From positions 930,001 through 994,000 of the forward strand of contig NW_024704743.1 in the NCBI RefSeq assembly GCF_018977255.1: DNA of 64,000 nt, given 5' to 3'. The notes below the pieces were generated by a model. The model worked only from the letters and a program-made list of their open reading frames with translations, was not told where the DNA came from and did no database searches. Made by a program: the position numbers and the translations under genes. The DNA comes from Callorhinchus milii. Lineage: Eukaryota. Of the stretch, positions 24,801 through 49,700 are shown piece after piece; the stretch's first letter is position 1, and every line of letters starts with the position of its first letter.

Positions 24801-27800
24801 GAACAAATGTGGCAAGGATACAGATCCAGCACCAGGACCAGCGTCCTCTTGGTCTCAAACATGTCCAGCAAGCAGGTGATCCTCGGATGGTTAACTCTGG
24901 ATAAGAGGGCGAGTTCCTTAAAGGCCCGGGAACTGGTGCTTCTCCTGAGCGGAATGAACTTGGCTGCACTGGACGCACCAGTCTGCTTACTGACAACTCG
25001 CTTCACAAAACCACACGATCCCCTTGGGAAACAAACAAAAAAATGATCTCTCTTCATCACGCGGGAGACACGAGCAGTAATCGACGCGTTCAACGCAGCT
25101 CCCAAACAACAACAACAACAACAAATGGCATTTTTGTATACTGTCGGGGGAGGATGTCTCAAAGGGTCTGGACCTAAGCTGGGGGGTTGGAACTAGGAGG
25201 ATGGAGGGAAGGGAAGGTGGGGGTAGGAGGGCGAAGGGCCATTACCACATCTTACATAGAGGTTAATAAGGTAATAACAAGAGTGTGACCCCCCCACTCC
25301 CCCATAACAATGGTCACTGCTGACGGCTGCTTTGCAGCTGCCACTGACCTGGCTGGATTATTGATTTAGCTCAAGCCCCCGACCCCTCCAAAGCACCTCC
25401 ACCTAATATCTCTCCGTTCCTTTTTCCTTCACCCGCCTATCAAGTTGACTCTTAAATCCATTGATGCTCTTTGCTTCAACCACCGCAGATTCGGACAATG
25501 AGCTTTTAAAGCAAATTTCAGTTCCCTTCTCTCTCTGACCTCGAAACTTCCTCGGGTGCACAACGCTGGAAGAGACAGAGCAGTTTCACTCTGATGGAGA
25601 TGGTCACTCTGATTAAAAGGTCACTAGCGTTACTATCAGTAATTATATGAACAAGTGCGCTGATTGAAGAACGGCTGATTGAGGGTCTGTCTGAGCGCTG
25701 ACTAGAGCAACAACAAGAGGCTGAGGGCTCTTACAATCCAGACACTTCTACATCTTTTCTTATCCACATCTCGCTAATCTTTTATCGATAGAAATTTGAC
25801 TTGTGCGGATTTCGGGATTCCGTGATTGAGATACAAGTGGTATTTAAGTCACGCTGTTTACAGTATTTGTCAGGGACCAGCTAAAACCATATAGTGTGCC
25901 AGACAGCAATATCAATAACAAGCTGGTTAGACTCCAGCAGTTACGCCAACGGTTCCCCAACTATCCGGAGAGAGAGCGCATCCCATTATAACAATCTATC
26001 TCTGGCATTTCCACGTGTAGGTGGGGGTGCAAGGATTTCTCAGTGTGGTTTGGATACTCTTAAGCTCGGTGATGGGTTTCCGCGTGTGTCAGACACTCGG
26101 CTGACCCAAGAAGGATGGAACTGGTGCCTTTACGATCAATCTTCTCAATCGACAAACGTCTGCAGAATAATTTGTTCATTTCAGAAACGGAAGCAGTGCT
26201 TTGTACTCGCATGTAATTCAGACAGACATACCTTCCAATTTCTTCTTTCACATCGTAATAGGAATGCAGTTTCCTTCTCTCTGAAAGTTTCTTCCCGTCA
26301 TCTTCTTTGTCTGAACTGCCCTCTGGCCACCAAAAAAGGGACAACTTATTTTAACACCGTACACTTTTCAGACTGAAGGTTTGACATGTGTCGTCTTTAA
26401 ATTCAACCTGGCAGTTGGACTTTAGAAATCCCAAGACACTATTCATGGAAAGGGACTTTCTCCCGTTGTCCTGGCCTTCACACCAAATTGGTCATTCACT
26501 TAAATAACTCAAAAAAAAATTGGTCACTCAATCCATGATTATTTGTGGGACGCTGCTGTACGCAATCGGCTCCCGTGTTTCGCCCACAAAACACGCAGTC
26601 AATTTACTTTACAGTATATTCTGTGTAGCGCTTGAGACGTCTTGAAGACGTGATAAGGTGCTATACCAAATGCAAGGATTATTATAGTATATATATTGCG
26701 TTTCCTTACAATTTCTTCAGCAATAATAATAATAATCTTGCACTTGGTACACTTGCCTTTCATCCAGGGAGGACGTCCCAAAGCACTTCACAGGATTTAC
26801 TATAAAGCGAGTGACTGTGTATTTAGAGGCAGTATGGGCACAGCCTCTAAAAAACAAACAGGAAGTGTTTTGCTTTTCGTTGGGGGTATTTGATATGGCG
26901 CCTTATCGTGTCTTCAAGACGTCTCAAAGTGCTTCACAGAATATACTGTAAAGTGGAGTGACTGTATATTTTGTGGGTTTACCGTCTAATCTGAAGTATG
27001 GCATCTCCAGTCTAAGATGGCAGTTCTCCCCAGTACTACGCTGGAGTGTTAGTCTAGGCTGTGAGTTAAAATATCTAACTTATCTTCTTAATTAGTTACC
27101 TATCTGTTTTTCACTGTTTTAGTCATTTAATTCTTGGGGTATAAAACTTACACTGCCATCCAGTGGCCGCAGAGGTAACACGGTAACAGAAGTCATAATC
27201 CTTGCATTTGATTCAGTGCCTTATCACGTTGATACGTCTCAAAGCGCTTCATAGGATATACTTTAAAGTGGATTGACTGTGCATTTTTATGTGTGAAACT
27301 CGGCATCGAATTGCAAACAGCAGTGTCCCACAAACAGCCGTGGGTTGAGTGACCAAATTATTTATTCATTTATTTATTTATTTATTTGGAGGGATTATTA
27401 CCCCCCGAAAAGCGATCTGCCAATCGTCTAACAACCAGGTTCCTACTTACTGCAAGTTAAACGAGAGGAGTGTGATGTAAGGAAACTTGCTTAAGGTTTC
27501 GCCCCTGCCGGGAATCGAACCTGGGGCCTCTCTGTTGCGAGGCCAGTGCTCTCACAAATACACTACAGCACTCCACGAATCGAAGATTGTTATCAGAAAC
27601 AGAAGCAGGCCATTCGGCTCACCAAATCTCTTTGCCCAGGGCTCCCCCAACATATTGTTAGGCACTTGGAGAAGTTCATTCTATGTGAAAAGCACCTTAC
27701 AAGTTGTTGCTACAAAAATGTTTTAATGGGACAGAGGACAGCGCCTGTTTACCTTCGTGCTTTAGAGCAACTGAACAGCTTTCAGAGCCTATGTCACCCT

Positions 27801-30800
27801 CAGCAACATACTGTCCCTCATTTTCCTTCCTCTCGAACACGAAGGCGGGGTCGAAGAGGAGGGTCTTGTGAGCATGTTGCTCTCTTCCTTCAAGGTCTTT
27901 CCCAGGGATTTCTTCTCTGTCTTCTCTCTGTAAATCATCCCTGGTAATAAACACAGACGACGTTTCAGCATAAAATATCACTTTACACTACGGTGCAAAC
28001 AGGAATGACCGGAATAGGCTCAGGACGGCAAACCTCGATCGATTCTCCTCTTGGAGAGTCCGACTGGATGACAGACTCAAACCCCAACATTGGGCTTGAA
28101 TGCACAGTTGTCTGAACGAGAGTCGAGAGCTACAAATAAGCCAAGCTGATATCTGGACAAAAAAACAAACATTTATTTACAGAATCTATTTCCTCTGCTG
28201 CAATTTACTATCCCTTCAGCAACAATAAGGTGTATTTATCTAGCGCCCTCCAAACAGGGTAGTGTTTCGGAGAGCGTCCCAGGTACAGTATTGATGGTAG
28301 GCGTGGTGACGGGTTTCTGCTAGTGTCAGACACCTGAGGATTGGCCAAAAAATGAAAGTCCACTATCACTTTGAGTAAGGGTGTAAAACATACCGGGTCC
28401 AATATTCAGATGATGTTGCAGTTGTTACCCCACAGCTAATAGACACCTTGGTGCTTTGTACCGCATGAGTAGCCTGTAAACTCTCCATAAAATCCGATTT
28501 CTCACCAACATGCCACCCTGCAATAAAGAACATAAGAACATAAGAATTAGGAGCAGGAGTCGGCCATTCGGCCCCTCGAGCCTGTGCCCCGCCATTCGAT
28601 AAGATCATGGACGATCTTCAGACCTAACTCTAATTACCCGCCCTCTCCCCATATCCGCTAATCCCTCTATTTTTTAAAAATCTATCAGTCTCAGCCTTGA
28701 AGATGTTCAAGGACTGACATCTACAGCCTTCTGGGGGAGTGAATTCCATAAAGTCACTGCCCTCTGAGTGAAGAAATGTTTCCTCAACTCTGTTCTAAAA
28801 GGCTGACCCTTAATTTTAAGACTGTGACCCCTGGTTATAGATTCTCCTACCGGGGAAACAGACCCTCAGTGACTACTTTATCAGCCCTTTAAGAATCTTA
28901 TATGTTTCAATAAGATCTCCCCTAATTCTTCTGTACTCTAGAGAATATAACAATAAAGTAGGTAATCGAGATGACACCAACGTATAAAATGCAAAGATTA
29001 TTATATCATTATATGTTTAGACTATTCTTTCACACTTCTAAATAAGAGTTTGAATTACTTGGACGGCACAGAAAGTTAAACAACAAGGACCCTATCACCC
29101 ACACCCTCGCCCGTCCACTGGCTTCCCACCACCCCCAGAGGATAGAGTTCAACATCCTTGTCCTTGTCTTCAAAGCCCTCCGCAGACTTGCCTCTCCCTG
29201 CTAACCCCATACTCAAGACCCTCCTCTTCAACCTCGCCTTCGTTCACCCTCCCAGCACTATTAACGATTCACACCTCAGTTGGTCTCATCTCTGAATTAG
29301 TAGTTTGTGGATTCAAGCCCCACAAAAGAACTTTGAGCCCTTATCTGACACTCCAACACAGTGCCGGGAGAGCAGTGCATTGTCGGAGGTGCTGTCCGGA
29401 TAAGACGTTAAAACCGAGATCCTATTGCCTGTTCAGGTGGACATTAAAGATTCCCAGGGCACTGTTCGGAAAGGGAAGGAGAAGGGAGTTTCTCCCTGTG
29501 TTTTCTGCAATAATAATCCACCAGATATTTAAAATAATAATTTGCTGCTTGTCTGTTTGTGGATTATTGTTGTGGCCAAATTGCCTGCCACGTTCACCTA
29601 CAGGTAGTCACTGCACTGTGCAGTAAACTCTAATGCAACGCTTTGAGATGTACTCCCAACGTGAAAGGCATTAAATCAAATGCAAGGATTATTATATATT
29701 ACCTGTCGCCTCTTGTGGATCCAAATGACCGTGACAGCTCTCAGGAACATCCAGTTTGTGGCTCTTGATGTTCCGTAACTTACGCGACTCTTCTTCCAAC
29801 TTACCAGCCGCTTCACGCAAAGCACTGGGAAAAAAAATTGGAAAATAAACGTTCAATCATAGCACAGCTGAAAGGTTTGCCCTTTGGTTTACCTATTTGT
29901 TCAGTGCCCCTTCCTCAAGAAACAATGCATAGACTAAAACGACCGGTTTTAATCGCAGAAAAAAGTGGTCCATTTTGAATGAAAGAAAAAGGAGGGGAAA
30001 TCCAAACATTAAACAGTAAAGGTTTAAAGGCAGAGGAAGAACAAGGAAACCTAAGAGTTCACATGCACAAAAAGTGGGAGCGCAAATTGACAAAGGTAAT
30101 GGAATACTAGGGTAAAAATGGGTGCACAGAGCCCAAAACATCAACTATTCAGACAATGTACTATTCAGTTTTGGGCATCCCAGTTTAGGAAGGTTTCAAG
30201 GCCATGGTGAGGGGATAAAGGGGATTCACCAGGAATTAGAGACTTTCCTGCTGAGCAGGCGTTCTGATCTTTAGATACAGTATACAATACAATACATTGT
30301 AGGTAAAAAGCCATTAAATTAAGATCATTAACCAAAAAAACCTAAAAGGGAGAGGTTAGAGGCTACAGAGAAAGATAAAGGGCTGGCCCAGGGACAATGG
30401 GTCAAATGGCCTCTTTCTGTGCTATAAAAGTCCATGATAAAATCTGTGGGATTATAACTGGTGTGTATAATGGGTTTGGACTTTAGGTAATATTATAATA
30501 TCCCTTGCATTTAATATAGCGCCTTATCACGTCTTTGAGACAGCGCCTCACAGCGCCTCACAGATGCTGTAATTTTGTGGGCGAAACGCGGCAGCCAATT
30601 GCGCACAGCAGCGTCCCACAAACAGTCGTGGATTGAGTGACCAAATTATTATTCTTTTTTTTAAAAGGGATTATTACCCGTGGAATAGCGATCCGCCAAT
30701 CGACTAAAACTGGGTTCCTACTTACTGCAAGGGAAACAGAGGCATGTGGCGTGAGGAAACTTGCCCAATGTTTCACCCTGCTGGGAATCGAGGCCTCGAG

Positions 30801-33800
30801 GCGAGGGCTCTAACCACTCAGCTGCAGGACACCACAGATAAGGGGTTAACAGTGGGTGAGTCGTATTTCTGCCCAATACATTCCCTGCCCAAAATAGAAC
30901 GAAATTCTCAGTTGGGTTTGGAGACGCTTATGCAACAGTGATGGGTTTCGACGGGTATCAGACACCCGGCCGACCACACAAAAAAAATGAAAAACTTGAC
31001 CACATCACCCCTCAGCCTTCTCAGTCTTTACACGGTTCTGGATTCCGTAAATAATAATGAAGACTGAGTTGAATACTTTCCGATTGTGTCTTATGTACTT
31101 AACAATAACCACCTCAAGCAGTCACCTTGACAAACTAAGTTGCTCAGTTACATTCAGGTCAGGTGTGATCGTCCTTCTTCTGAAGGTGGTTGGGCTGAAC
31201 TGTACTTCACGCAGTTTCTTGACGGTTACGCTTTGAATGCTCTCATTTTCCACATCTGTGTGTCGGGGCAGAAAACAAATGTTACTCTTGTAATGGTGTT
31301 TTCTGACACTGAATGTGGCAGATAATTCCACATTCCGACCGCCCTCTGAGTCAAGTTTTTTTTTCTGACCTCCCTTCGATTATTTTTGTGATTATCGTAA
31401 ATTTGTGACCTCTAAATTTGTTACTGATTCGCCAAACAGTGGAAATAATCTATTTACTATATAATTATCTGGTTAGGCTCCAGCAGTTACCCCATCGCAC
31501 ACTCTGGACTCCCCCAAGCCTTGGCTCTTGCCAACCTGCGCTTAATACTTTCCGGAGTTAGGTAAGCAGAATGCGTCCCTCAGAGAGAGAGAGAGCGCAT
31601 TCCATTCCAACAACCTATCTCTGGGATGTCCACGTGTAGGTGGGAGGCAGGGAATTCTCAGCTGGGTTTGGAGACTCTTAAGCAACGGTGACGGGTTTCC
31701 GTGTGTGTCAGACACCCGGCTGGACAGAGAAAAAGAAAAACTTGACCATGTCACCCCTCAGCCTTCTCAACTCTTTAACTCCTCAAGTCTCCCTTCGTAA
31801 ATGAAACTCCTCATCCCTGGTAGCATCCCAGTAAATCATCTGTGCCATCACCCGACAGTCGGGCTGACACTCTTGCATTCTGCAAGGTTTTGATGTGTGT
31901 TTATTCGACATCTTGATACTGTAGGGTACTGTCGTGTTATTTTGATAAGGTCCTGCTGCAATGGTAAAGGACGCTCTGTTCTTGAGTGTTTAAAATACTA
32001 AAGTGAATTGAGAACCTGGACAAGGGACGTCTCTGCCCTGAAACTGAATGATCCAAAACAGGGAAGAATAAGCCCTAAAATTGGAGCTACGTCAATCAGA
32101 AGCGAGATCACAAAACATTTCTTCACAGAAGGTTGAGAGAGCGTGAAAATCATTAACCCTGAGGGCTGTAGAGGCAGAATCACTTGGGATGTTTAAGAGG
32201 AGCTGGATGGGTATTTGGGAAGTTTGGGTATTAAGGATAAAAAACAGGGAAATGGAGAATATTTGCTAGGCCAGGATATTAAGGGATAGGAGGCAAGGGC
32301 GGGTAACTGGTCTTAAGGTACAGATCAGCTATGATCTTATAAAATAGTGGAACAGGCTTGAGGGGCTGAACGGCCTCCTCCTGTTTCTATGTTTCTAACA
32401 GGATGTGCAATGTTCTACCGGGTGCAGCGGTCGAGGCAGGATCCACATTAGCTGAGACACGACTTACGCTTTAGGGGTCTGGTTTGGTCATAGCTGCTGG
32501 TGGGAGATTCTGGCGAGTCTGGTTTAACAGCTGTGTCAATTGCAAGCTCTTTGGTCTCCCCTTCACAATACTCTGGGACACCGAGTTCTGAAGAGACAGG
32601 TTCCGTGCCTTCCCCCTGTTATCTTGCGACAGAGTCACGTAGGTCACTAATGAGGTATCTACTACTTCACTTAATGCCTCGTCGTCACCCTCATGTGATG
32701 AGTGAGGAGTATCTTCCGAAGCTGGATGTGATGCAGTCTCTTCTCCCTGTAGCCAAGGTTCCCTTCTCTCCTCATCCTCTCTTGTCTGACCCCAATACTG
32801 GCTATTCTCTCCGTCTGAGGCGCTTGACAGGACCTCTGCGAAAGATACTCTCTTTGTTTTCCTGGACCCGACTCTGCCCTGGATGTCTGGCCCAAGGTCT
32901 CCTTGCGATGTGTATCTGTGTGAAGGGACGATGGTATTAGGCATGTTCACATGATATGACAATATGTACATTTATAAAGCCAATGTTAATTATACGCTGG
33001 TATATCTGATGAATGATAAATTACTGGGATTATATAAATGACCTAGTGCAGGTAACCACCCAAATCAATGCAGGTACATATATACCAGTACAGCTTACCC
33101 CGTGCAAGTAACACCTGGACATGTACACCTGAACCTGTGCAATTACACGTACCAGCAAATTCTTATGTTCTTATAGCATGTGAAGTGCTTCAAGATGTCC
33201 GCCCGACATGAAAGGCTCTCTATCAAACGCGAGGATTATTATTATCGCAATTTAAGGCATTGACTTTTTACTCACTCTGTGTCGACACTTCTTCTTTGGA
33301 TGCCCAACTCCTTATTCGGTGGGTATTCCGTGTCACCTTTACTCTCTCCGCTTCTTGTTTCTCTTGACAGAGCTGTTAATGTGGGGGCAAATAGTAGGAC
33401 TGAAATGGGATTCAAGAGCCAAGCACAGCGCAAGTTGCAAACCACACTTACACAGAGTGAAATAGCACAGAAACAGGCCACCTGGCCTAACTAGTTTATA
33501 CTCCACACAAGCCCTCACTTGCCTTATTCCCCTCTCTTATCCGGTGTGTATTTATGTCCCCTCATTTGTATAATCCCAACTTGCGCTGCTTGGAAACACT
33601 CAATTTAACTGTCTCATCTCCAGAAAGAAAAGCTCCAACCTGTCTAACGTGTGTCAGTCTGGCTCAGGGTAACACTCCCAGTCTCCTGGCCGACAATCCC
33701 CCAAATAAAAGTCGGTCACTCGCACCATGGCTGTTTGTGTGCAAAATGACTGCCACGTTCACCCCCAAAGCAAACAGTCACTGCACTTTACAGTCTACCT

Positions 33801-36800
33801 TGCGCGCTTTGGGACGTCCTCTGCACTTGTAGCGTGCCTTCCACGTCGGGAGAACGTCCCAAAGTGCTTCACAGGATTTACTGCAAAGTGTAGTAACTGT
33901 AGACTAACTAGCACAGTAGCAATATCATGTCAAACAGCCATGAAGTGTATGAGCAAGCTTATTTGGATTGCTGACCACTGTTCCAGGAAAAACTCTCTTC
34001 TCTCTTAGGAGAAGGATTTGAACAGGTATGCACGGCGCACTTAAAATCTCAACAGAAGGAAAGCACCTCCAATAATACAGCATGATCCCAGCCCTGCACT
34101 GGATGTCAACTAAGATCTTAAGCTCCCCTGGTTATGTATTGACTCCCAACCTTCTGACTCAGATGTGAGAGTGCTACCAACTGAGCCAGACCGACAATTT
34201 GAATCGTTTGTTGTGGGAGTTTTTAGTTGACATCATTTAATTGCTGTGATTTTCTTTAATAGGTGAGATTCGACAAGATAGAGACGAAGGAACGTTGAAA
34301 CCGCTCACTGGCTAACCGTGAGAATTCTGAGGAGGATGGATAATGTAGATTGAACTGGAAGGGTATGAAACTGTATTTGCTTAATAAAATTCCCATCTAC
34401 ATTTATATATCGCCTTCGACCTGAGATGGACATTGAATTGCTGGCTGGGCACCTGAGCTGGGTGTGGGAGCAGGGTGGGGAGAGGAAAGATGCCTGAATG
34501 CACGGTCAAAGAGTTACATCTTGAGATGAGCTTCAACGAGGTGAGGGAGAGAGGGAGTCGGAGGGAATCTTGAGATGGAGTTCTTCCGGCAGTTGAAAGC
34601 CCGCCTTCTGATGGTCAGACAGATAGCTCGGGGACATGAAACATGAGCAAAGTATGAGTTCCTTTGGGTTGAAGCAGGTTCCAGAAGTAGGGTAGGACAA
34701 TACCATGGAGGGATTTAAAAGTGAGATCAAGGATCTTGGGGGAAGGGGAGCTAATGGAACCAAGCAAGGGTGGGGGTGATAAGCTCATGGACCAGAGGGC
34801 ACGCACACAAAATGAATAGCCCTCAATATTTTCCCCATTGAACAGTGCGTAAAGTGAACAGACTCAGAAAAAGCACTTAACACTTGAGTGGAGAGGTAAG
34901 TGGGGTCTCCTTGGAACTGAGCTGGCTCCAAGAATCGAGCCAGCCCCCTGGGGTGGTTTCTGGACCGGGTCCTGAGCCAGCAGGGGCCGCAGTACCCCAG
35001 AGCACTGCTGATGACAGCACAGCCCGGCCTGGCTCATCGGCAGGTCCTGGAAAGGCAGACCAGTCACTTCAGTTCCTATTAACCCTGCAAGCCAAAGCCG
35101 TAGGGTTGTTCTAGCTGGACAAGCAGCGGGAAAGCTTGCCAGATACTGATATCAATAATAATAATAATAATAATCCTTGCATCGTCGGGAGGACGTCCCA
35201 AAGCGCTTCACAGAACACACTGTAAAGTGAATTGACTGTATATTTGTGGGCGAACGCGGCAGCCAATTGCGCACAGCAATGTCCCACAAACAGTCGTAGA
35301 TTGAAAATGACCAATTTATTATTGTTTTTGTTATTATTATTATTAATATTATTATTGTTATTATCAATGGCAAGCTATGCGGTTTTAGCTGGTGAGTCTC
35401 CAGCAGTTACCCCAGCGCACACTCTGGGGTCCCCAAGTCTTGCCTCTTGCCAACCTGAGCCTAATACTTTCCGGAATTAGGTAAGGAGGGTATGTCCCTC
35501 CTAGGAGAGAGAGGGAGAGAGCGAGAGAGGGAGAGAGTGCATTCCATTCCAACGATCTATCTCTGGGATTTCCATGTGGAGGGGGGACGTCTGGAATTCT
35601 CAGTTGGGTTTGGAGACTCTTAAGCAACGATGACGGGTTTCCGCACGTGTCAGACACCCGGCTGACCCCCCCACCAAAAAAAAGGAGTTCAGGNAAAAAA
35701 AAAGACAACACAGAAAGCAGGAGACACACTTTGATTTACTTTTCTAAAGATTACCACACCAAAAGGAAGTAAGTACGAGAATAAAGTACATACAAGAATT
35801 CCTTGAAACACGTACAAGAATGGCCCAGTCTTTTTTTTAGGCTCGTTTTTAAACGCATGATATATTTTTAAAGGCACTGTTTTGAATATGTTTCCCAAAG
35901 CTAATTCATACTGTGCAAAGTGATGTGTGTGTTTTTTTTTTTTCTCTTTCCAGATACAGAAGTAAAAGCTAAAGACAAAACGTGACCAAATCTTGGTGCA
36001 ACGAGTAGCGACTGTAGTTTGAATTCTCTGATGTGGGCTCCACAATCTTTGAGTTGATTGCTGTCCCAGTGCAGAAGCTGCCAATGCAAACCTGCGGTGC
36101 CATTCACCTGGCGCTTGCAGCTCATGCATATTGACCTCGACTCGGAAGGGAAAATCTTGCTTTGGCAATATTGGGCTCGGCAGATATGTTGAGGAGGCAC
36201 GTGACTGTGCTGTTGCAGAACATCGCAACGCTTTGCAAGATTAAAAGATATGTATTGAGAATTCCCGTGAACCCTGTTCTTAATTCAGTTGCCGGAAGGC
36301 ATTCCCAGCATCCGGGAGCTACTTTTCTTGACAGCATTTCAAGAAGAGGACAGTTATCCCGCACTGCGATGCGCTTGAAAAGTGATGGGGGAGCATTTTG
36401 CCAACAGCACAACAGCACCCGGTCTGTGCAATTAGCCCTAATCTATTCTTTCAGCGTCAATTACTCTAAAAAGATGCAACAAATTTTTTAATATAAGCTA
36501 AACTGTCTTCTTCTGGTGAGTAGCCATACACTTGCAAATTGGCCGCTTGCTTTAAACCATTTAGACTGCACAATGAAAGTCACATGTGGTCATCTAACTG
36601 GACAGCCATGGATCTTCGAGCAAAGATGCTTAAAATCTCAATTCCTTCCTTTTTTTTCTCAAGGAGAAATTTGCTGGTCAGTGAGTCAGTAACTAGTAAA
36701 CGAGCAAATGGGAAGGTGAGGAGAAATGTATTCACGCACAGAGCGCTTAGGATTTGAGGCAAAACACATATCGGCCTGCAAGAGGGAAGTAGTCAGATAT

Positions 36801-38360
36801 GTTGAAAAGAGTCAGGGATGTGGGGGAAAAGGGCAGGGAAGTGGGACTGAGAGGACCGCTCTTGAGGGAGCTGGGACGGACACGTTGGGCCAAATGGCCT
36901 TCTTCTGTGCCGTAAATGTCTATGGTTCTAATCGGGGTAAAACTTACTACAATAGTCAGGAAAAAAGCAACAGCAACAAAAAAGACTAGCTCTCAAGACA
37001 TGTTTCTATCGTCCACACCATTTACTTTCTACACCATTGCAATGCTTTGTCCACGGCAAAGACTCGAGTCCAATAATCCGTGGACAAATACAAGGAGAGG
37101 AGTGGACATTTTCACATGAGACTAAAGCACACCATGCCACATTGGTTACAGCTACACATTATCTCCACACTCTTGACAATTTCCTCCCCACTTCTGTTTT
37201 CTCCCGAGCCAGAAAGTGGACAGTAAATAGCATATCATATGGCCGGTCGGTCCGTTTCAGAAAAAGTGCGTACGGCTCACTTGTGGCTTGATGCTCACAT
37301 TTGTGAGACACTATGAAGACAACAGGGATATAAATCCCCATTTCTCTATCTGCTATGCAACCAACAGGAGAATCTATCACTAAAGTCAGTAGAACTCTTT
37401 TGACAACAGCAAGAAAAGAAATGAGTTCTACACGAGACTAGTACAATGGTTATTTCTTAGTTTAAGTTGCAGTTTAATCGTCAATGGGTGGTAGATAATA
37501 ATAATCCTTGCATTTGATATAACGCCTTATCTTGTCGTTGAGACATCTTAAAGCACTTCACAGAACATACTGCGAAGTGTAGTGACTGTATATTTTGTGG
37601 GTGAATCTCTAAAGAAGATCTCTAAAGAAGGTTCTCTGTCAAATCATCATATGTTTTCCCAATGAAAGAGCAACCGAGACTCATCTGTCATTTCAACTGG
37701 CAAACAGTTATGAGGCTCACATTCCCACTAGCCGGTAATCTAACCGACCTTGGTGGAGTGCGTTTATAATAGGATGTGTCGACCGGTGGAACTTCAGCCC
37801 TTGCTTTTCCTTTAAGGAAAACCGTGAAGTAATTCATCTTGCTTTAGAGCGAGCACTTTGGCGATGCAATACTTCACCAATTCTTTCCACGTGCAACAAC
37901 ATGCTGTTGTGTGTCAGTATCGCACTGAGAACTCAGAGATGATAATGCACTCGTCTAAGCTGATGTTTCCAAACTATTTCATTCAAATTACGACAGCTAC
38001 ATATATCACATCTATATTAGATATATATATATTATATAGTGCATTATCACATTAATAATGTCACATATTCTGTCTCATTGATACAGTTACAAATGGCCAA
38101 GTAAAGAGAGAACATTAACGGTTTTATACTTAGTAAAAAACTGAAGTCTACAAGGAGGCTCGTATGATAAGTTATTAACAGTACGTTAGTGTCCATAATA
38201 CATAGGTAAGCCCAATCATTGAAGTCTTTCAACCGATGGAATGGAGTTTCTTTGAAGAAAAGTTTTTTTATATATAAGAAGCTGTTTCCTCTAAATGTTC
38301 TCCCTTAAGACTAGAATCACTTCACGTAATTTTTTTCTCTCTCTCTCCCTCCCTCCCTCC

Positions 38361-38395
<35 letters not shown>

Positions 38396-41300
38396 TCCGT
38401 TGCAGCATTCCTCCATAAACTCGGTCTCCCCGTCGCAAGATGAAGACCGTGTTAACATTGTCACTGCTTCTGTTGGGCTCCTGTGGGCGGCTCCTTCTTA
38501 CTGATGTGCAAAGTGACCGATTCTCCAACAGCCCCATAGCTGAGAGTTCTCGTGGAAACCTCGGTCTTGAAGCTTGGCTGTCCATTGTCCACCGAGCATT
38601 GCACCGCAGTACAGAAGGATGTCTTTAACTCAAACCCGGGGTTCTTCTCAGCTGCTCCTGCTGAGGGGAGGACGACCGATTCGCTGCGTGATTCACTGAC
38701 GTGCACGGACACATTTGTGGGCCCCGCCGAGTGCCTCTCGGTGACCCGGGACGTGGATACGAACATCCCCCCAGCGCAAGGGTCTCTGAATGGACGCGAG
38801 TAGCTTGGATTCATCTTGGGGACGACTGGCCTGCCGACGTTCAGTAAAACCGGTTTGCCAATCGTTGGTTCACCGATCTCCGCCTGCAGGACCGAGATCT
38901 CACAGGGCTCTTCGGAACTGGCACCTGGTGGACTGTCAGACCCGGCCCCACATTTGTAGGTTTCTCCCTGAACAGGAACGTAGTCTTCCAGGTCTTCCAG
39001 CGTCAACAATTTGCCGTTATGAGTCAAAATCTTCGTGCCTCGACCTATTAGATCATCGCTGCCAGACTCGGAAGGTTCGTCGACGATGACGTTTTCGTCT
39101 TCGGGGACTATGAAGTCTTCCTCGCCTTGCTTCACTTCCTCCATCTCGTCCACGGGGACATCCCGTGGAAGGTCCGCGATTTCGGAAGGCGACTCTGTTC
39201 TGAGATCGGGTACGTTTTCGAGGGACAGCTGCTCAGCGTCTGCAAGTTCAGGGCTTTCGAAACTCAACACAATGGTTTCACCCACATGTGCAATTAGCGG
39301 AGATTCCCCTTCCGTCAACGTGACGCACTGATCTTTAGTTGCTCTCGGCTGGAGACTGTAGTCGGTCCCTGCGCGTGCAGAAGCCTCTGGAGAAATGTCA
39401 ACGGCCTCGGCCAGGGTGAACTCAGGGATAACATCTTCCGGCTTGGTCAGTTCATTGTCATCATCGTCATCAACATCATCAGAGTTCTCAGGTTCACACA
39501 CGAGAGGCTGAATATCTACATCACTTAGATTTTCATCGGGAAGAGAAGATGCCATTTGTTCCACCAAATTATTGTTTGAGTTGTTCGAGTTCGGGTCAAC
39601 CCTCAGTGGTCTCTTGGGCCGTGGACTTGGCGACCTGTGGCCGCTCTGCCTTTGCTCAGACAGTGTTTGGATAGACGGGGAAACCGATCTTTTCCTGTCG
39701 GACTTTGAGCTTTTCGTGACTTTGAACTCAATAACTTCCTCAACTTCAACCCAATTTGTCTTCCGTTCTTGGGCTTGAGTCTGCAGCGAGAGCGGTCTCG
39801 CAGCTGCTCCCCGCTCTTCTTCTGGGACGGTTATCATCACCGCGGGAATTGCAGGCATCTTCACGGGGCTCTCCCTGGGCTCAGGCTGTGCTTTGGGCGA
39901 CGCTTTCTTAGGTCTGGCTGACCCGGGTGCCTCCGATGCTGTTTCCTGTGGCCTGGGTGACCGAGCGGGGGACACACTGGAGCCTGAGCGACGTTTGACC
40001 TTTGGGCTCTTCACGACGGTCGTGATAGTCTCCTCACTATTCGTGAAAAAACGTTTCAATAAATTTAACCGTCGGAAGGAGCCCCATTGTACAAGAACGT
40101 CCTGTACACTTCGGCTCCGAGGCGATGCAGACAAGGAAGCAGGGTTCGTTTCGGGTTAGTTTTGTGAACAACACAATCTCTGGTCATCCATCAAACACAA
40201 GACAGTTTAAGATCATGCTGATCCACTATGGTGCAAGGTTAAAAGGTCCGTGAGATAGGATGTTATTTTTGAATGGAAAGCACAGAATTGCTTCTTAACA
40301 GCAGGAGCACAAGTTTATAACCTATTCATTTTTTTCTTTGACCAGCAAGGCTCTGCTCCGACCAGACTGTTTTTACGTTCTAGTTATTATGGCTAATAGG
40401 AATATTAGTCCTTAATTTAATCTCGTGCTTCAAGCCTCGTTTTCTGCTATGACTTGTTGCTTTCACACCCGAGCTTAATTTCTGAATTGCAAGCCAAACA
40501 TAACAGATGTTTGCACACCTGTCTCAATAAAGATTTCCCCCCTATCTACTTTATTATGTTTGTGGGACGCTGCCTTGGGCAATTGGCTGCCAAGCTTTGC
40601 CCCAAAAATATACAGGCAATTCACTTTACAGTATAGTCTGTGAGTGCTTTCAGACGTCTCAATGACGTGATCATGAGCTACGTCAAACGCAAGGATTATT
40701 ATTATTATTAGAAAGCTAGAGGAGTACTGCTAATGATCCAGAAATTTCTCACGGTTTTACCCTTAAGAACGCTGCCTCATAATTTATCCGGAAGAACTTT
40801 GGAAAATCCTTAAATTCAGTCGGAATTTCGAAGTCACAGAACTGGGGAAAAGCTTCTAAATCAAGAGAGTTTTTCAAAATTCTGCAACGTCTTAACTTTT
40901 AAGACGATGATCTCGCAACTCAGACCGTGTTGAATTTCGGGCTTCTTCCAGTTGGCTAGCTCTTAACAGCATTGAGATTCGCAACTGGCTGAAGTATCAG
41001 GTGTGCAGAAGATAGGGCCGGACAGCCTATTGCACACGCATGTGCTAGCGGTGAGAAGCAACATCATAGAACACGTAGCACAGAAGATGGCCCATTGCTC
41101 TGAGCTGTCTCTTTGAAAGAGCAATCCATCCAGTACCATTTCTCTGCCTTTTTCCTCATACCCATCACTATGCAAATACACTTCCATCGTAAGTAAGGCT
41201 TCTGCGTGATATACGCTACATATAAAGATTTACACTCAACTGTAAAATATATAGTGGTCCTCATTGCAGGAAATAATTGCGTTCACTCAGTTCTGCGCGA

Positions 41301-44300
41301 TTGCCCTCAATGTGACCTTGAGCGCAATGGGAAACCTCCTTTATGTTGTTTGGAAAAGATGTTCAAATGATTTTCAACGATAACTGCTGGAAGCCAAAAG
41401 TAGTTTATTGCATTAAACTTCCAAAGTCAATCTACTTTCACCTTCTTTATCGGAAGCCCAATTTGACGTCGAAAAATACCTTGCAATTAAGCTGTGTGTT
41501 GCCTTATGAAACTTATGGAAACCATGTGCTCTATGCAAAGTAAACTCGGGTAATGACAAACACTGACATGCACAGACACACAGCTGTCCACACAGGATGA
41601 TAACATGCACTGAGCAGTAACACAACATGGCAGCTCACACAGGCAGGAATGAAGGAACCAAGCACTTACATGATGATGGTTTTCTTGGGAACTTTAGTTT
41701 CTTGTTCAGTGACTATAAGAAACAGGATGAAAAGCGTGGAGTCAGAAAACGGACAAGGTGAAATGACTGCTCAAAGGAGTCTACGAGGTTCACAAGATCA
41801 CAAGAGGGTCGATCGTTCTGACGGGAGCTATTACTTGTGGAGAGGTTGCCATTGGTACAAAACGGACGTGGACCTTGGGGTTGGGCGATTCAATGTGACT
41901 CAACGTTGAACTTTCTGTTTAGATTCAACCCAAAACAGTTAAGCAAACGATTCTGAAGGAATATTTCTTGCCGCCTTATTGCCACACAACCCACCCCCAC
42001 CCCAAGGACCGGGGTTAGAGCCCGTGGTGGGAATTCTGCACTGTTGCAAATCGTATCCCATCCACATAACATTAAACTGAGGTCCCTATAAGGGTGGACG
42101 TTACTGTGGCACTATTTGAAACATGACGACAGCTTCTACCAGTGCACTAGACAACAATCCCCCAAATAAAGTGGGTCAATCTCTTCCTCTGTCTGTTTGC
42201 TGCAAATTGCCTGCTATGTTTGTCCACAAAAGACACACTCACTACACTTCCCAGTAAAAACCCCGGTAAAGGGTTTTGAGACAGCGCAATGATCTGATCA
42301 GGCGAAAAATATCTGCCTGTAATTTTGAAAGACAAATGACACTTCTTTGCCCAGTCTCAGGGTTTTTACTTCGCTCTTTCTCTTCAGATCTACCTCGGTG
42401 ACCGGAGGAATAGAGGAAATTCACTCGGTTGTCGTCGGATTGCAATAATCTAAGGAAGTAAGTGAAAAAATTTGCCTCCACCTCCAATAAAGTCTTGGCA
42501 CAACAGAAAAAGTACGTGGAACCAAACTCTGGTGATGGATTTGACCAGTGTGATCTGTACAGGTGGAAGTAAAACATATCTTTTACTGTTTCCAATAACT
42601 TTAGCTCCATGTACTCTATGTATAGGTCAAGTCTAAGTTTAAGCGCTTTGGGACGTCCTCCCGACGTGAAAAGCGCTATATCAAATGCAAGGATTATATT
42701 TATTATAAGTCAGGATTGACCAAAATTACAGAAAACAATCTGCTTTGATTAAAAAAAGATTCAAAAGCTTTAGGGCGTTGGTCATTAAAAATGAGTGATG
42801 TGTAGACATGGTCATCTGTGACACGCAATTCTCAATACAGTAGTAGCTAACGATAATCAATGACGTTAAGGGCTCCAAAAACTGCGCTTATAGCGATGAT
42901 AGTGAAGGGTTTAAACTCATAAGAAGAAGCCGTTCATTTAGGATTAGCGATGCATTATCAGCATGTAATGTGACAAACGGGACAGTATTATTCAAGGTAT
43001 TTCAGACGCTTTTTGCACTTTTTATTCAGTTTGCGGAGATCTTTTTGTAATGTGTATTTGCGACGAGGGCCAAAAAAAAACAAAACAAAACCTGTCAACT
43101 CTCCAAACGCCGACCTCTTTCTTCTTTAGTTACTGAGGACACGTCACAGTTTAAAGCACGGTTGTTAGGAGCAGATAATTTATCCGATCGGCACTCCGTG
43201 CATCAAGACCTAAGCAAGACTCGGGCAGAAATAGCGTCCTGTGGAGGTGGTGCTGGTTAAGATTCTTGAAACGTTTAAGCTAAGCGCCCGCCAGCAGAGC
43301 TCTGTATTTCCCATTTGGCCTTTCAGTGCTGTTGTCGTTGTAGACTTAATCGATATCTTGTAAAACGGAGTCTGAAAGTCTAACCCCCCGCTTGGCCCGA
43401 ACGGAATCCATGTTGTTTATTGGAGACGGGGCCTTTTGGGTGCCCCAACTCGTCCCCACATCAGTTCTCCGCTCCTGCGTTGGGGGAAAAAAAACCCTTT
43501 GCCGTACGAATCCCGAATAAGGGCTTCGGAGGTGGAAACGGTCAACGCTAGACGTTGACTGTTGGTTGGCGCAAAGCTTCCTTGACACAGACATCGCTAC
43601 AAATCAGCAAGCCTCTACAAGGGCTGACTGGGACGTCCTCCCGACGTGAAAAACACTATTAAACACGCAATTTGTTGTTGATTTCTTTTATAGAGAAAAA
43701 AAAAGCGCTTCATAAAGTGGGAGCGTTTCCAGCTGTGACCAGGCCTGCTTCTACCTTTACTTGCTCCATTGGCCGAGGTGTTTTTTTTATGACGACGCGA
43801 CAACGGGTGTACAACATGGAGTTTTTCAACAGCTGCTGCGATAGTTGCTGTTAGTTGGTCACATCATCGCCTCTGGCTCACAATGTGGTGACAATGTCAT
43901 TGGTGGCTGTTGTTGTGGTTGTTGCTGTTGTTCAAGCCCCACATAAGTACTTTGAGCTCACGGTCTGTGCTGGGGAGAGCCACCTGTTTGGGTGGATGTT
44001 ATATCCTGCGATTATTATTGTTATTATTTTGGCACTATTCCCGTTTTTCTGGTCAACTGATCAAAATCACCTCACATTTGTGGGTCCTCACTGCGTGCTA
44101 CCTACACCAGCAAATACGCATGAAAGTATTTCAAGTGCTCTGGGACTCTACCCTGCGTGAGGGGCGCAAGTTGTTGTTGTTGTTATTTTCTTGTGAAGCA
44201 CTTTGAGGCATTTCAACATTTTAGCCGCTAGATCAAATGCAAGAATTATTGTTATTTTATTTGGATGCAGTTGATCATCTCCCGGGTGCTTAATGGATGA

Positions 44301-46721: not shown

Positions 46722-46753
<32 letters not shown>

Positions 46754-49700
46754 GAGGTTATCTGCTGGAGAAGAATTTTATATGCCATTAACTGGTAACG
46801 TGGGGCTTGTAGTACAAGCAGCGGAAAACATGACGGACAGTATCCACAGTGTCCAGTGGTTTTAACTGGTTAGACTCCAGCAGTTACCCCAGGGCATACT
46901 CTGAGGTCCCCAAGCCTTGGTTNCCCCCGACCTGCACCTACTACTCTCTGTACTAAGGTAAGCACAGGAGAGGGAGTGTGCATTCCATTCCACGCACAGC
47001 GGAAATTTCCATCTTGTAGGTGGCGTACATATGTGGAACTCTCAGTCTGGTTTGGAGACTCTTAAGCATGCTGGTGAGTTTCGCAATAACCTTATTTGTT
47101 TTTTTAAACAAAATTTTTCTTGAGGAACATAAATATAGGACCGAGGCATTCCAATGAAGTCTTATTAACTTGTTAATGCTTTCAGGAAAATCAACCGTCA
47201 TTTTAACCGTCAATTTCCACACAAAAAAAACGATCGTGACGTAACCTAAGATTTTCTGCACGGAAATCCCTGTATCTCCTTCACACCCAAGACCCAAAAA
47301 GGCTTTGCTCTGACTTGACCTGGTGTTTCCCGAGTCTGTGCGAGGGCCACTGGGTTCTCTGCGGAAAGTACAGGCTACGCTGTGGGAGCTTTTCCCGCCA
47401 GTTGTGAGGTTTGAGCACTTTCTCGCTTGTACCTCAAGGCTTCAGGCTTGAAAGTAAAAACCGCAAGAACCTACCTTCAATCATGACAGCTCGCTCTCCC
47501 TTCTTGTCCGGAACCCGCAGTATGGGGGCCTGAACGTACAGCTCGGCATGATCGTTAGCAGTACCCAGCCTGTTCGTAACCTGGGGAATAGAACATGCAA
47601 GTTTATAATAATAATAATCCTGGCATTTGATACAGCGCCTTATCACGTCTTCGAGACGTCTCAAAGCGCTTCACAGGATACACTGTGAAGTGAATTGACT
47701 GTATACTCTGTGGGCGAAACACAGCAGCCAATTGCACACAGTAGCGTCCCCACAAACAGTCGAGGATTGAAGTAACCAATTTATTATTATTCCTTTTTAT
47801 TTAAAGTATCACCCCTGGAAAAGTGATCCACCAATCCATATCCCTTGATAACCTGACCTAATAAATATCGATCGATCTCAGTCTTGAACGTTTGAATGGA
47901 TCCACCACCCACAGCCTTTTGGGGGAGAGAGTTCCAGAATTCTACTGCCCTTTGTGTGAAAAAGTGCTTCCTGGTTTCACTCCTAAATAGCTTATTTAGG
48001 AGATTCTTAAAATCTTATTTTCTCTAGTTTCTCTGGAGCTACCCGTTTTAATCCCTTTAAAACACCTCAAATAGATCCCCCCCTCAAGTTTCTAAACTCG
48101 AGGGAACACAAATAAAATATAGAAATGGAAATTGTATCTGTAGTAGCGAACGTGGCAGGCAATTTGCATCCAGCAAAAACCTACCCGGAAACATGAAGTG
48201 ACCCTTTCTATGTGAGGGGGCTGATGGCCAGGACTCTGTTCTCTTTTATGAACAGTATCATGCGATCATCTCACCTGAACAGGCAGATGGGACCTACCTT
48301 GTCCCGAACACAGATTGTCAGGCCGAGACAGTGAGTTCAAAGTCCCAAGGCAGGACATGAAGCACAACCTTCTAATACAGAGATGAGGAATATTGTAAGA
48401 ACAGCCACTTGGGCAAGATAGATTGTCCACTGCCCACGGACGTGCACCACAATATTTCGGGAGAACATTGGGATGAGGGTGGGAGAAAGAAGAAACAAAA
48501 TGTCCCCTCTTCAAAACATACGCACCTCACATTCGTAGACTCCAAGGTCTTGCCTTGTTGTGTGTTTGATGACGAGTACTGCAACTCCAAACTGTGTGTC
48601 ACAGAAGGTCTGGTATTTTGTCTTATCTGCTAACAATGAGCCAGCTTTACTCCACCTGTGGTCAAAAGAGAATTGATGAACATCAGCTGCAACTCGGAGG
48701 TTATTAATTCGACATGATCCTCAGGCAAAAGAACCAGAGGGAAGATGAGCAGAATTTTTTTTTTTTTTTTTGACTCAGCAAGTTGTTACGGTCTGGAACG
48801 CACTGCCTGAATGGGTGCTGGAGGCAGATTCAATAATAACTTTCCAAAAGGAATTGAATACTTACTTGAAAATATTGGGTCTGCAATGCTGTACTCTGTC
48901 CAGCGCCTTGGGACGTCCTCCCGAAGTGAAAGGCGCTACACAAATGTAATCTTGTTGTTGTTGTTGAAAAGGAACAGGCTAATGGGATAGAACGTGGGAC
49001 TAGTTGGGCAGCTCTTTCATAGAGTCGGCACAGGCACGATGGGCCGAATGGCCTCTTTCTGTGCTGTAAGATTCTACCAGCCTCAGTGATGTAAAATTGA
49101 AGACTGTGCAGAATTTTGGAAAGACTCTCAAATTCTGGCTGAAGTTCGGAAGCCGGTGTTAAAATGAACCAGGAAAACGGCTTCCAAATTCCATCGGAAG
49201 AATTCTTTTGAAGAATTTTTCAAAGTCCTACAAGGATTTTAAATTTTAGGTCAATGATTGTACAAGAGTTTGCGCTTTCAGGACAGGGCTTGAGGTGAGT
49301 GGAGAAACTTTGGATAATTATGAACCATTGATTTAAATTCACTTTGAAAGCTTCGTTATTCGATACAACAACAACAACAAATACGACAAATTGCATTTAT
49401 CTAGCGAGCACAGTCACGTCGGAAAGACTTCCCAAGGAGCTGGACAGTCAAGGCTTTGCAAAGCCAATGAAAAGTTTGAACTGAAGTTATGTGAAACTTA
49501 CTGTAGGAATAACGGTTGCTATGTTTCTCGGAAGACACAGATGACGACATGCTGTACATTGCACCAATAGAACGTGCACCAATAGAACGGCAATAGAACA
49601 AGTTCTTGCAGCCTAATATTTATGGGCTTTCTCTTTTTACTAAGTAAGGCAAGACGTTAAGAGAAATTGGGTAGAGAAATAGAGGTGAACTCACCTTATC

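What the first reader, a model, noticed from the sequence alone, without database searches (positions are those of the whole stretch)
27753..33372. Six-exon, ~370-aa unrecognised linker stands where the pre-kinase-1 Ig domain of obscurin-B is expected
Seen in sequence: six minus-strand exons (33276-33372, 32468-32915, 31126-31255, 29703-29824, 28394-28517, 27753-27940) have AG/GT ends and phases that chain 1-2-1-2-1-2-1. They link the phase-1 donor at 47475 to the phase-1 acceptor at 26322, with one frameshift reported separately. I found no Ig exons (WYK, GxYTC motifs) between 26322 and 38461. Established: mammalian obscurin-B has a linker and an Ig domain immediately before kinase 1. Inference: this lineage lost the Ig and built an acidic, disordered linker. 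The acceptor at 28517 takes its pyrimidine tract from the tail of an adjacent CR1 LINE, suggesting TE-assisted exon origin.
Basis: partly seen in the sequence, partly recalled or inferred. Interest (0 to 1): 0.7.

Follow-up and report, generated by a model that had tools for sequence, protein, structure and literature searches.

The report
Eroded Ig domain before obscurin kinase
In this cartilaginous fish the giant muscle protein obscurin reaches its first kinase through a long flexible linker and what looks like a worn-down remnant of an immunoglobulin domain that bony vertebrates keep intact and that shark and ray gene models lack altogether.

Summary
The six exons are real. One spliced contig carries exons 2-6 in order, and contigs of all four runs laid (three studies) hold a base missing from exon 2, so the frameshift is an assembly error. 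The 370-aa product is acidic. (1) The Ig looks eroded, not deleted: exons 5+6 score 14.2 bits on a general Ig profile (0 of 3000 shuffles, 0 of 1060 inter-kinase windows), first half in exon 5, second half in exon 6. (2) The linker is not this genome's invention: exons 1-4 are 30-39% identical to four shark and ray models, and the exon-3 motif is in bowfin, gar, teleosts and salamander. (3) The LINE tail beside exon 5 is real, but exon 5 is most likely an old Ig exon. The two shark/ray models that reach kinase 1 show no Ig trace; 91 of 94 proteins judged have the Ig. An RVxF-like motif is conserved in 4 of 4 chondrichthyan sequences covering it. Junctions 47475>33372 and 27753>26322 were not seen directly. 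New variant of obscurin-B; interest 0.42.

The parts
47475..47580 (-). Last exon shared by obscurin A and B (end of second post-PH Ig), phase-1 donor at 47475
   Evidence: Sequence and acceptor; joint 47475>41712 in X1 and X4
41670..41712 (-). First isoform-A exon (43 nt)
   Evidence: Joints in X1 and X4; splice sites
35718..40036 (-). Isoform-A terminal exon with 3' UTR; poly(A) tail at about 35718 in X4, X1 contig reaches 35631
   Evidence: Joint 41670>40036, pieces and loose end
33276..33372 (-). Linker exon 1 (97 nt; alternative in-frame acceptor at 33399)
   Evidence: AG/GT; match to Chiloscyllium residues 18-45 (p 0.048; p 0.003), not significant against Scyliorhinus or Leucoraja alone; X4 record 17 has 74 nt before exon 2
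32468..32915 (-). Linker exon 2 (449 nt in the reads; the assembly lacks one base near 32602)
32840..32854 (-). RVxF-like (PP1-docking consensus) motif in exon 2
   Evidence: Fits the consensus quoted in PMC5847313; at the aligned place in 3 of 3 elasmobranch models that cover it, in 0 of 86 other linkers; 4-6% of shuffles hold one
31126..31255 (-). Linker exon 3, ancestral conserved motif
   Evidence: 70% identity to Chiloscyllium, E 1e-12; relatives; bowfin, gar, teleost, salamander, turtle matches
29703..29824 (-). Linker exon 4
   Evidence: Match to Chiloscyllium 248-283, p 0.002; contig length accounting
28525..28945 (-). 5'-truncated, frame-broken LINE 3' end with a short tandem tail about 10 nt before the exon-5 acceptor; 'CR1' is a recalled label
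   Evidence: Six partial copies elsewhere in the window; very high depth in the DNA run; Atlas gave only unnamed clusters
28394..28517 (-). Exon 5: first half of an eroded I-set Ig (A-strand Phe, B-strand Cys, C-strand Trp)
   Evidence: 10.1 bits alone on the general Ig HMM; first-half profile z 3.9, 1 of 1000 shuffles
27753..27940 (-). Exon 6: second half of the eroded Ig (GxY kept, F-strand Cys lost, G-strand Cys and Leu kept; ends 7 residues after that Cys)
   Evidence: General E-F-G profile z 2.4, 21 of 1000 shuffles; class profiles z 2.2-4.3; 2.5 bits alone
26232..26322 (-). First exon of kinase 1 (short N-terminal linker and start of the domain), phase-1 acceptor
   Evidence: tblastn with shark and mammal proteins; splice sites

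Best explanation
This is the B (tandem-kinase) branch of an ordinary OBSCN gene in a cartilaginous fish, probably a holocephalan (inferred). The donor at 47475 either takes the isoform-A exons or skips 14 kb to exon 1 (skip inferred). Exons 1-4 encode a 266-aa acidic, mostly disordered spacer with two conserved islands: an ancestral jawed-vertebrate motif (exon 3) and a chondrichthyan RVxF-like motif (exon 2). Exons 5-6 are the two half-exons of the pre-kinase-1 Ig, still spliced and in frame but so eroded that motif searches and Pfam miss them (Ig origin shown statistically; orthology inferred from position and exon ends). Selection on this Ig relaxed in chondrichthyans: a relic here, nothing recognisable in shark and ray models. 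Functionally (inferred) kinase 1 hangs on a longer, softer tether, with the relic more likely unfolded than folded (about 65:35), so stretch reaches the kinase's N-terminal linker through an entropic spring and not from a stiff Ig.
For: Splicing and frame. Ig signal: 14.2 bits, 0 of 3000 shuffles (best 12.1); 0 of 1060 inter-kinase windows (best 6.8); end-to-end alignment with 0 of 150 shuffles for 9 of 11 Ig classes; hhalign E 3.5e-4 over 91 columns; halves in the right order; junction lies 5 nt after the Trp codon against 7 nt in the window's intact Ig; exon sizes 124+188 against 114+168 nt. Ancestral state: Ig before kinase 1 in 91 of 94 proteins, SPEG and a hemichordate protein among them, and in Drosophila (PMC10129394). 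Chondrichthyan placement 100/99.
Against: The signal is weak in absolute terms: hhalign probability 37%; Pfam finds nothing for either exon; PDB search finds no Ig; exon 6 alone is borderline (21 of 1000). The resemblance was noticed by eye before testing. The joined exons match the orthologous class worst (OBSCN pre-kinase z 2.05, 7 of 150; SPEG pre-kinase z 1.8, 5 of 150; 0.4 bit on its HMM) and have a B-strand Cys that bony-vertebrate pre-kinase Igs lack. The two flanking junctions were not observed. Elasmobranch absence rests on two gene models.
Confidence: 0.68

Rival explanations
1. One reading: the Ig exons were deleted outright and exons 5-6 are new disordered sequence whose Ig likeness is chance.
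For: No hit with the orthologous Ig profile, none in Pfam or PDB; exon 6 is highly charged (D+E 27%); Ig half-exons here are phase 1-1, so deletion would keep the frame.
Against: Shuffle and real-sequence controls, right order of halves and exon ends in register. The profile also missed a true Ig half-exon at 62914-63018 (0.0 bit) that the general profile finds (15.2 bits).
Confidence: 0.12
2. Exons 5-6 are Ig-derived but come from another Ig (a duplicated exon pair, or the second of two ancestral pre-kinase Igs), the orthologous one having been lost.
For: Exon 5 fits tandem, post-PH and inter-kinase classes (z 2.6-5.0) and not the OBSCN or SPEG pre-kinase first half (z 0.6, 0.2); SPEG and the hemichordate protein have two Igs in a row before kinase 1.
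Against: Exon 6 fits the pre-kinase classes (SPEG z 4.3, OBSCN z 2.5, invertebrate z 4.3); the invertebrate pre-kinase Igs have the B-strand Cys; position directly before the kinase exon.
Confidence: 0.13
3. The linker and kinases form a separate transcript with its own promoter and are not joined to giant obscurin.
For: Junction 47475>33372 not listed; elasmobranch annotations split the kinase module into separate genes; short kinase isoforms exist in mammals (PMC12812942).
Against: X2 record 9 goes on for 5000 nt upstream of exon 2 while its longest listed piece in the stretch is exon 2, and isoform-A sequence lies on other X2 records; phases match. A short isoform could exist as well.
Confidence: 0.1
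4. Exon 5 was born when the LINE tail supplied its pyrimidine tract.
For: The tail ends about 10 nt from the exon and fills part of the tract; exon 5 has no significant match in elasmobranch models (best p 0.04 of 4 tests).
Against: Exon 5 matches an Ig first half, is single-copy in the DNA run (depth 7.9 at 28473) and is 124 nt, so alone it would break the frame of both kinases; its acceptor is not unusual (pyrimidine fraction 0.75 within 0.55-0.85 for 20 acceptors).
Confidence: 0.05

Closest known systems
Vertebrate obscurin-B (OBSCN tandem-kinase isoform)
   Same: SH3, DH-PH, two Igs, alternative A/B ends, kinase 1, inter-kinase region, Ig-Fn3, kinase 2 in the same order; kinase 1 74% identical to Chiloscyllium; exon-3 motif shared with bowfin, gar, teleosts, salamander, turtle.
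   Different: 266-aa spacer against 92-169 aa in the three bony-vertebrate linkers measured; pre-kinase Ig eroded instead of intact; RVxF-like motif not found in 86 other linkers.
Elasmobranch obscurin models GCC29259.1 (Chiloscyllium), GCB60611.1 (Scyliorhinus), XP_062900579.1 (Mobula), XP_055519719.1 (Leucoraja)
   Same: Colinear exons 1-4, 30-39% identity; no intact Ig before kinase 1 in the two that reach it.
   Different: A single segment of about 38 aa without Ig signal (1.4-1.5 bits) stands where this window has exons 5+6; the models are partial or split.
SPEG and invertebrate UNC-89/obscurin
   Same: Tandem kinases with an Ig joined to kinase 1 by a short N-terminal linker (PMC10129394 passage).
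   Different: Their pre-kinase Ig is intact, and SPEG has Fn3-Ig-Ig there; the window groups with OBSCN, not SPEG.
Elastic inter-kinase spring of UNC-89 and NL-regulated twitchin kinase
   Same: Long low-complexity segment next to a sarcomeric kinase acting as a spring; N-terminal linker as stretch sensor (PMC8523150 passages). A model for how this works.
   Different: Here the segment is N-terminal to kinase 1; elasticity and regulation were not measured.

Membership tests
OBSCN, isoform B | DH-PH-Ig-Ig upstream and two kinases with Ig-Fn3 between them, in one locus | tested here: met
   tblastn of named obscurins across the window
OBSCN, isoform B | Kinase 1 groups with OBSCN and not SPEG | tested here: met
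   Tree of 28 rows: chondrichthyan clade 100/99 inside OBSCN 94/93 (the window row lacked a 9-aa micro-exon found later)
OBSCN, isoform B | Kinase exons spliced to the giant upstream transcript | tested here: inconclusive
   Junction not listed; 5000 nt of contig upstream of exon 2 in X2
OBSCN, isoform B | Intact Ig directly before kinase 1 | tested here: not met
   no intact Ig; relic only
I-set Ig domain (exons 5+6) | Ordered profile match over the domain length, above controls | tested here: met
I-set Ig domain (exons 5+6) | B-strand Cys, C-strand Trp, F-strand GxY | tested here: met
   Alignments
I-set Ig domain (exons 5+6) | F-strand Cys, Asp before GxY, Gly of the A'-B turn, Pro of the B-C loop | tested here: not met
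   Alignments; these positions are 0.79-0.93 conserved in 81 intact Igs
I-set Ig domain (exons 5+6) | Reaches the Pfam I-set cut-off | tested here: not met
   Single exons only: 0 families, while 2 of 2 control half-exons passed; the joined pair was not scanned against Pfam
I-set Ig domain (exons 5+6) | Folds as a beta-sandwich | not testable with these tools
   The spliced product was not folded
PP1-docking RVxF motif | Consensus in a disordered context, conserved in orthologues | tested here: met
   4 of 4 chondrichthyan sequences that cover the place
PP1-docking RVxF motif | Binds PP1 | not testable with these tools
   Needs a binding assay
CR1 LINE (28525-28945) | CR1 ORF2 C-terminus and 3' tail | tested here: inconclusive
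   Multi-copy; family label recalled; Atlas clusters unnamed

The most novel reading that the evidence does not exclude
Cartilaginous fishes dismantled, in steps, the Ig-linker-kinase module that obscurin and SPEG keep from flies to mammals (relic here, gone in sharks and rays), and in the same lineage the enlarged spacer gained a working PP1-docking site, so that kinase 1 changed from an Ig-braced stretch sensor into a softly tethered kinase-phosphatase switch.
Probability: 0.15. Interest if true: 0.7.

Novelty: new variant of a known kind. Interest (0 to 1): 0.42.

Why it matters
The Ig before kinase 1 is conserved across bilaterian obscurins and SPEG, and none of the passages read here gives its role. 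A vertebrate class living with a relic or without it is a natural deletion experiment: shark, chimaera and mammal kinase-1 constructs can be compared for stability, activity and force response. It is also a worked case of a folded domain decaying into linker while its exons stay spliced, and it shows that split or 'uncharacterized' shark annotations and one assembly error hide a normal obscurin-B. The gene itself is well known and the change is one domain, hence a moderate score.

Tried and rejected
No whole genome was held, so other loci and introns of relatives could not be searched. A profile of the bony-vertebrate pre-kinase Ig found nothing in the interval; I first read that as deletion and dropped the reading; that profile found 7 of the 8 intact Ig exon places that the general profile finds. 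Pfam on 7 single linker pieces: 0 families. PDB sequence search with exon-2 start, exon 5 and exon 6: nothing useful. ESM Atlas on the Mobula linker: no usable hit. Exons 5 and 6 as two chains in complex prediction: no answer, no evidence either way. AlphaFold2 of the Mobula model on 9 sequences: pLDDT under 50 over nearly all of residues 1-263, no strands there, kinase strands 75-79; the alignment is shallow and poor, so this is weak. P0024 (cobra repeat protein, top hit) dropped as a repeat artefact. One positive control was mis-framed (z 0.0) and was redone (z 10.1). No run is on record as RNA; RNA nature is inferred from joints at GT-AG ends. The 1495 nt of X2 record 9 downstream of exon 2 equal exons 3-6 plus all kinase-1 exons plus 29 nt, which fits no insert but does not prove it. 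Short against long exon 1 could not be told apart by homology. A stricter RVxF pattern made after seeing the motif was replaced by the published consensus. The search of earlier findings gave nothing relevant.
Full report
Observation. The six intervals have AG/GT ends. As assembled, exon 2 is open in one frame up to a stop at its end while its last 38 codons match a shark protein in another frame. I laid 4 of the 13 runs listed on window 27580-47570. In all four, the contig over exon 2 carries one more C behind + strand 32602 (X1 89.3 of 89.3, X2 27.5 of 27.5, X4 39.1 of 39.1, X8 9.62 of 20.1; a second X8 contig touches that place without showing it and does not reach 32621). These are three studies, so the frameshift is most likely an assembly error. 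With the break read as X the chain is 370 codons without a stop, phases 1-2-1-2-1-2-1, D+E 19%, net charge -26. X4 record 17 has exon 2 at 75-526, exon 3 at 527-656 and exon 6 at 904-1090; the gap equals exons 4+5, leaving no room for another exon between exons 2 and 6. No run is on record as RNA; joints at GT-AG ends show that these contigs are spliced. Junction 47475>33372 is not in the (cut) joint table, and 27753>26322 lay outside the stretch. X2 record 9 runs 5000 nt upstream of exon 2 with no longer piece listed inside the stretch, which is best read as a join to upstream obscurin exons (inference). The same donor also feeds the isoform-A exons (joints 47475>41712 and 41670>40036 in X1 and X4).

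What the gene is. Named obscurins align exon by exon across the window. In a kinase-1 tree of 28 rows the window sits with two sharks and a ray (100/99), inside OBSCN and apart from SPEG (basal fork of that clade open; the window row lacked a 9-aa micro-exon). Its inter-kinase region is 37% identical to Chiloscyllium while three sharks share 65-77%, and it is about equally far from sharks and batoids in the linker, so a holocephalan is likely (inference).

Exons 1-4 are not private. Exon 3 retrieved four elasmobranch models and one spurious repeat protein from 1.84 billion representatives. Over exons 1-4 identity is 89/266, 97/247, 66/193 and 63/212. The exon-3 motif also matches the pre-Ig linker of bowfin, gar, many teleosts, a salamander and turtles: 23 of 108 segments at p up to 0.01 (no multiple-test correction, many rows related, mammals not among them). 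The three bony-vertebrate linkers measured are also acidic but 92-169 aa long. So the spacer was lengthened around an ancestral motif.

The Ig. Of 135 proteins held, kinase 1 was located in 109 and 94 had at least 110 residues before it; 91 of the 94 have an Ig there (78 of them built the profile, many are close kin or automatic models). They include gar, bowfin, teleosts, amphibians, reptiles, birds, mammals, SPEG and a hemichordate. Drosophila PK1 is joined to a preceding Ig by a 27-residue linker (PMC10129394, passage). The exceptions are Chiloscyllium, Mobula and a sturgeon model that fuses the A exon to the kinase; a reedfish model with 80 residues also shows none. The ancestral state is therefore Ig-linker-kinase. 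I then noticed by eye that exons 5 and 6 look like Ig halves and tested it. On a profile of 81 non-redundant Igs harvested from the held proteins, exons 5+6 score 14.2 bits; 0 of 3000 shuffles (best 12.1), the reversed sequence (0.4), exons 1-4 (-0.9) and 0 of 1060 inter-kinase windows (best 6.8) reach it. In the unspliced six-frame window, the best minus-strand hit after the intact Ig exons is exon 5 (7.8 bits; one plus-strand window ties it). End-to-end alignment gives 0 of 150 shuffles for 9 of 11 Ig classes; hhalign gives E 3.5e-4, probability 37%, 91 columns. Exon 5 matches the first half (1 of 1000), exon 6 the E-F-G half (21 of 1000), and the intact control z 10.1. Sizes (124+188 against 114+168 nt) and the junction just after the Trp (5 against 7 nt) resemble the window's intact Ig pair; exon 6 ends seven residues after its last Cys, where a panda model's insertion suggests the mammalian exon also ends (inference). 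Against this: the two orthologous classes fit worst (7 and 5 of 150), the F-strand Cys and other core positions are gone, and Pfam and PDB see nothing. The shark and ray segments score 1.4-1.5 bits; their genomes could not be searched, so exons skipped by the models remain possible.

The repeat. A 5'-truncated element at about 28525-28945, with six partial copies in the window and very high depth in the DNA run, ends in a short tandem tail about 10 nt before exon 5. 'CR1' is recalled from its ORF2 end and tail; no tool named it. PMC3747384 (passages) only shows that CR1 families exist in chondrichthyans. Since exon 5 is single-copy, not a multiple of three and Ig-like, insertion next to an old acceptor is the simpler reading.

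Extra lead. A motif fitting the PP1-docking consensus quoted in PMC5847313 (passages) lies at the same aligned place in the window and in 3 of 3 elasmobranch models that cover it (the Mobula model starts after it), and in 0 of 86 other linkers (14,724 aa); 4-6% of shuffles hold one. It is one of the more conserved islands of exon 2. Binding is untested. UNC-89's kinase region binds two phosphatases (PMC12812942, PMC8523150, passages).

Mechanism. Shown: exons spliced, frame open, Ig signature degraded. Inferred: relaxed selection on the pre-kinase Ig in chondrichthyans, relic here and loss in elasmobranchs; a longer, more compliant tether before kinase 1, by analogy with the elastic UNC-89 inter-kinase segment and the stretch-sensing linker of twitchin kinase; the exon-3 motif as an old binding or phosphorylation site.

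Literature. Seven searches of the held library listed no paper on chondrichthyan obscurin architecture; I saw listings and abstract starts only, plus passages of PMC12812942, PMC10129394, PMC7957886, PMC8523150, PMC3114093, PMC12241362, PMC13262535, PMC11536154, PMC5847313 and PMC3747384. PMC12241362 covers elephant-shark titin and names obscurin only in references. No supplements were opened; subscription papers on obscurin phylogeny are not in the library and may bear on novelty.

Verdict. Interest 0.42.

Noticed in passing
window 24821-23919, minus strand: The intron after the second kinase-1 exon starts GTATCCTT, the only such minus-strand site in the window; this is the U12 (minor spliceosome) donor consensus as recalled.
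   Followed up: partly
window 22368-22394, minus strand: 27-nt micro-exon of kinase 1 missed by tblastn; restores nine residues present in shark.
   Followed up: yes
window 33399 and 33372: Two in-frame acceptors 27 nt apart for linker exon 1; which is used is open.
   Followed up: partly
window 38461-40155: The long ORF is wider than the exon: reads splice in at 40036 and the 3' UTR runs to about 35700. In X2 isoform-A contigs are shallower than the B contig, in X1 and X4 deeper; contig depth is a poor measure.
   Followed up: partly
window 32468-32915: X4's contig is 452 nt over exon 2 (four gap letters), three more than X2's 449, probably a 3-nt indel variant.
   Followed up: no
window 27941-28393: Intron 5 is covered by an X1 contig of depth 12.3 (variants at 28069, 28282), possibly retained intron or pre-mRNA.
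   Followed up: no
P0057, P0021, P0122: Reedfish and sturgeon models show no pre-kinase Ig and an Aldrovandia model a degraded one (20.6 bits); further losses or faulty models.
   Followed up: partly
P0096, P0105, P0106, P0108, P0110, P0111, P0114; P0053, P0067, P0095: RVxF/W-like motifs recur in the inter-kinase region of seven teleost SPEG-like proteins and three obscurin models, two named as frogs.
   Followed up: no
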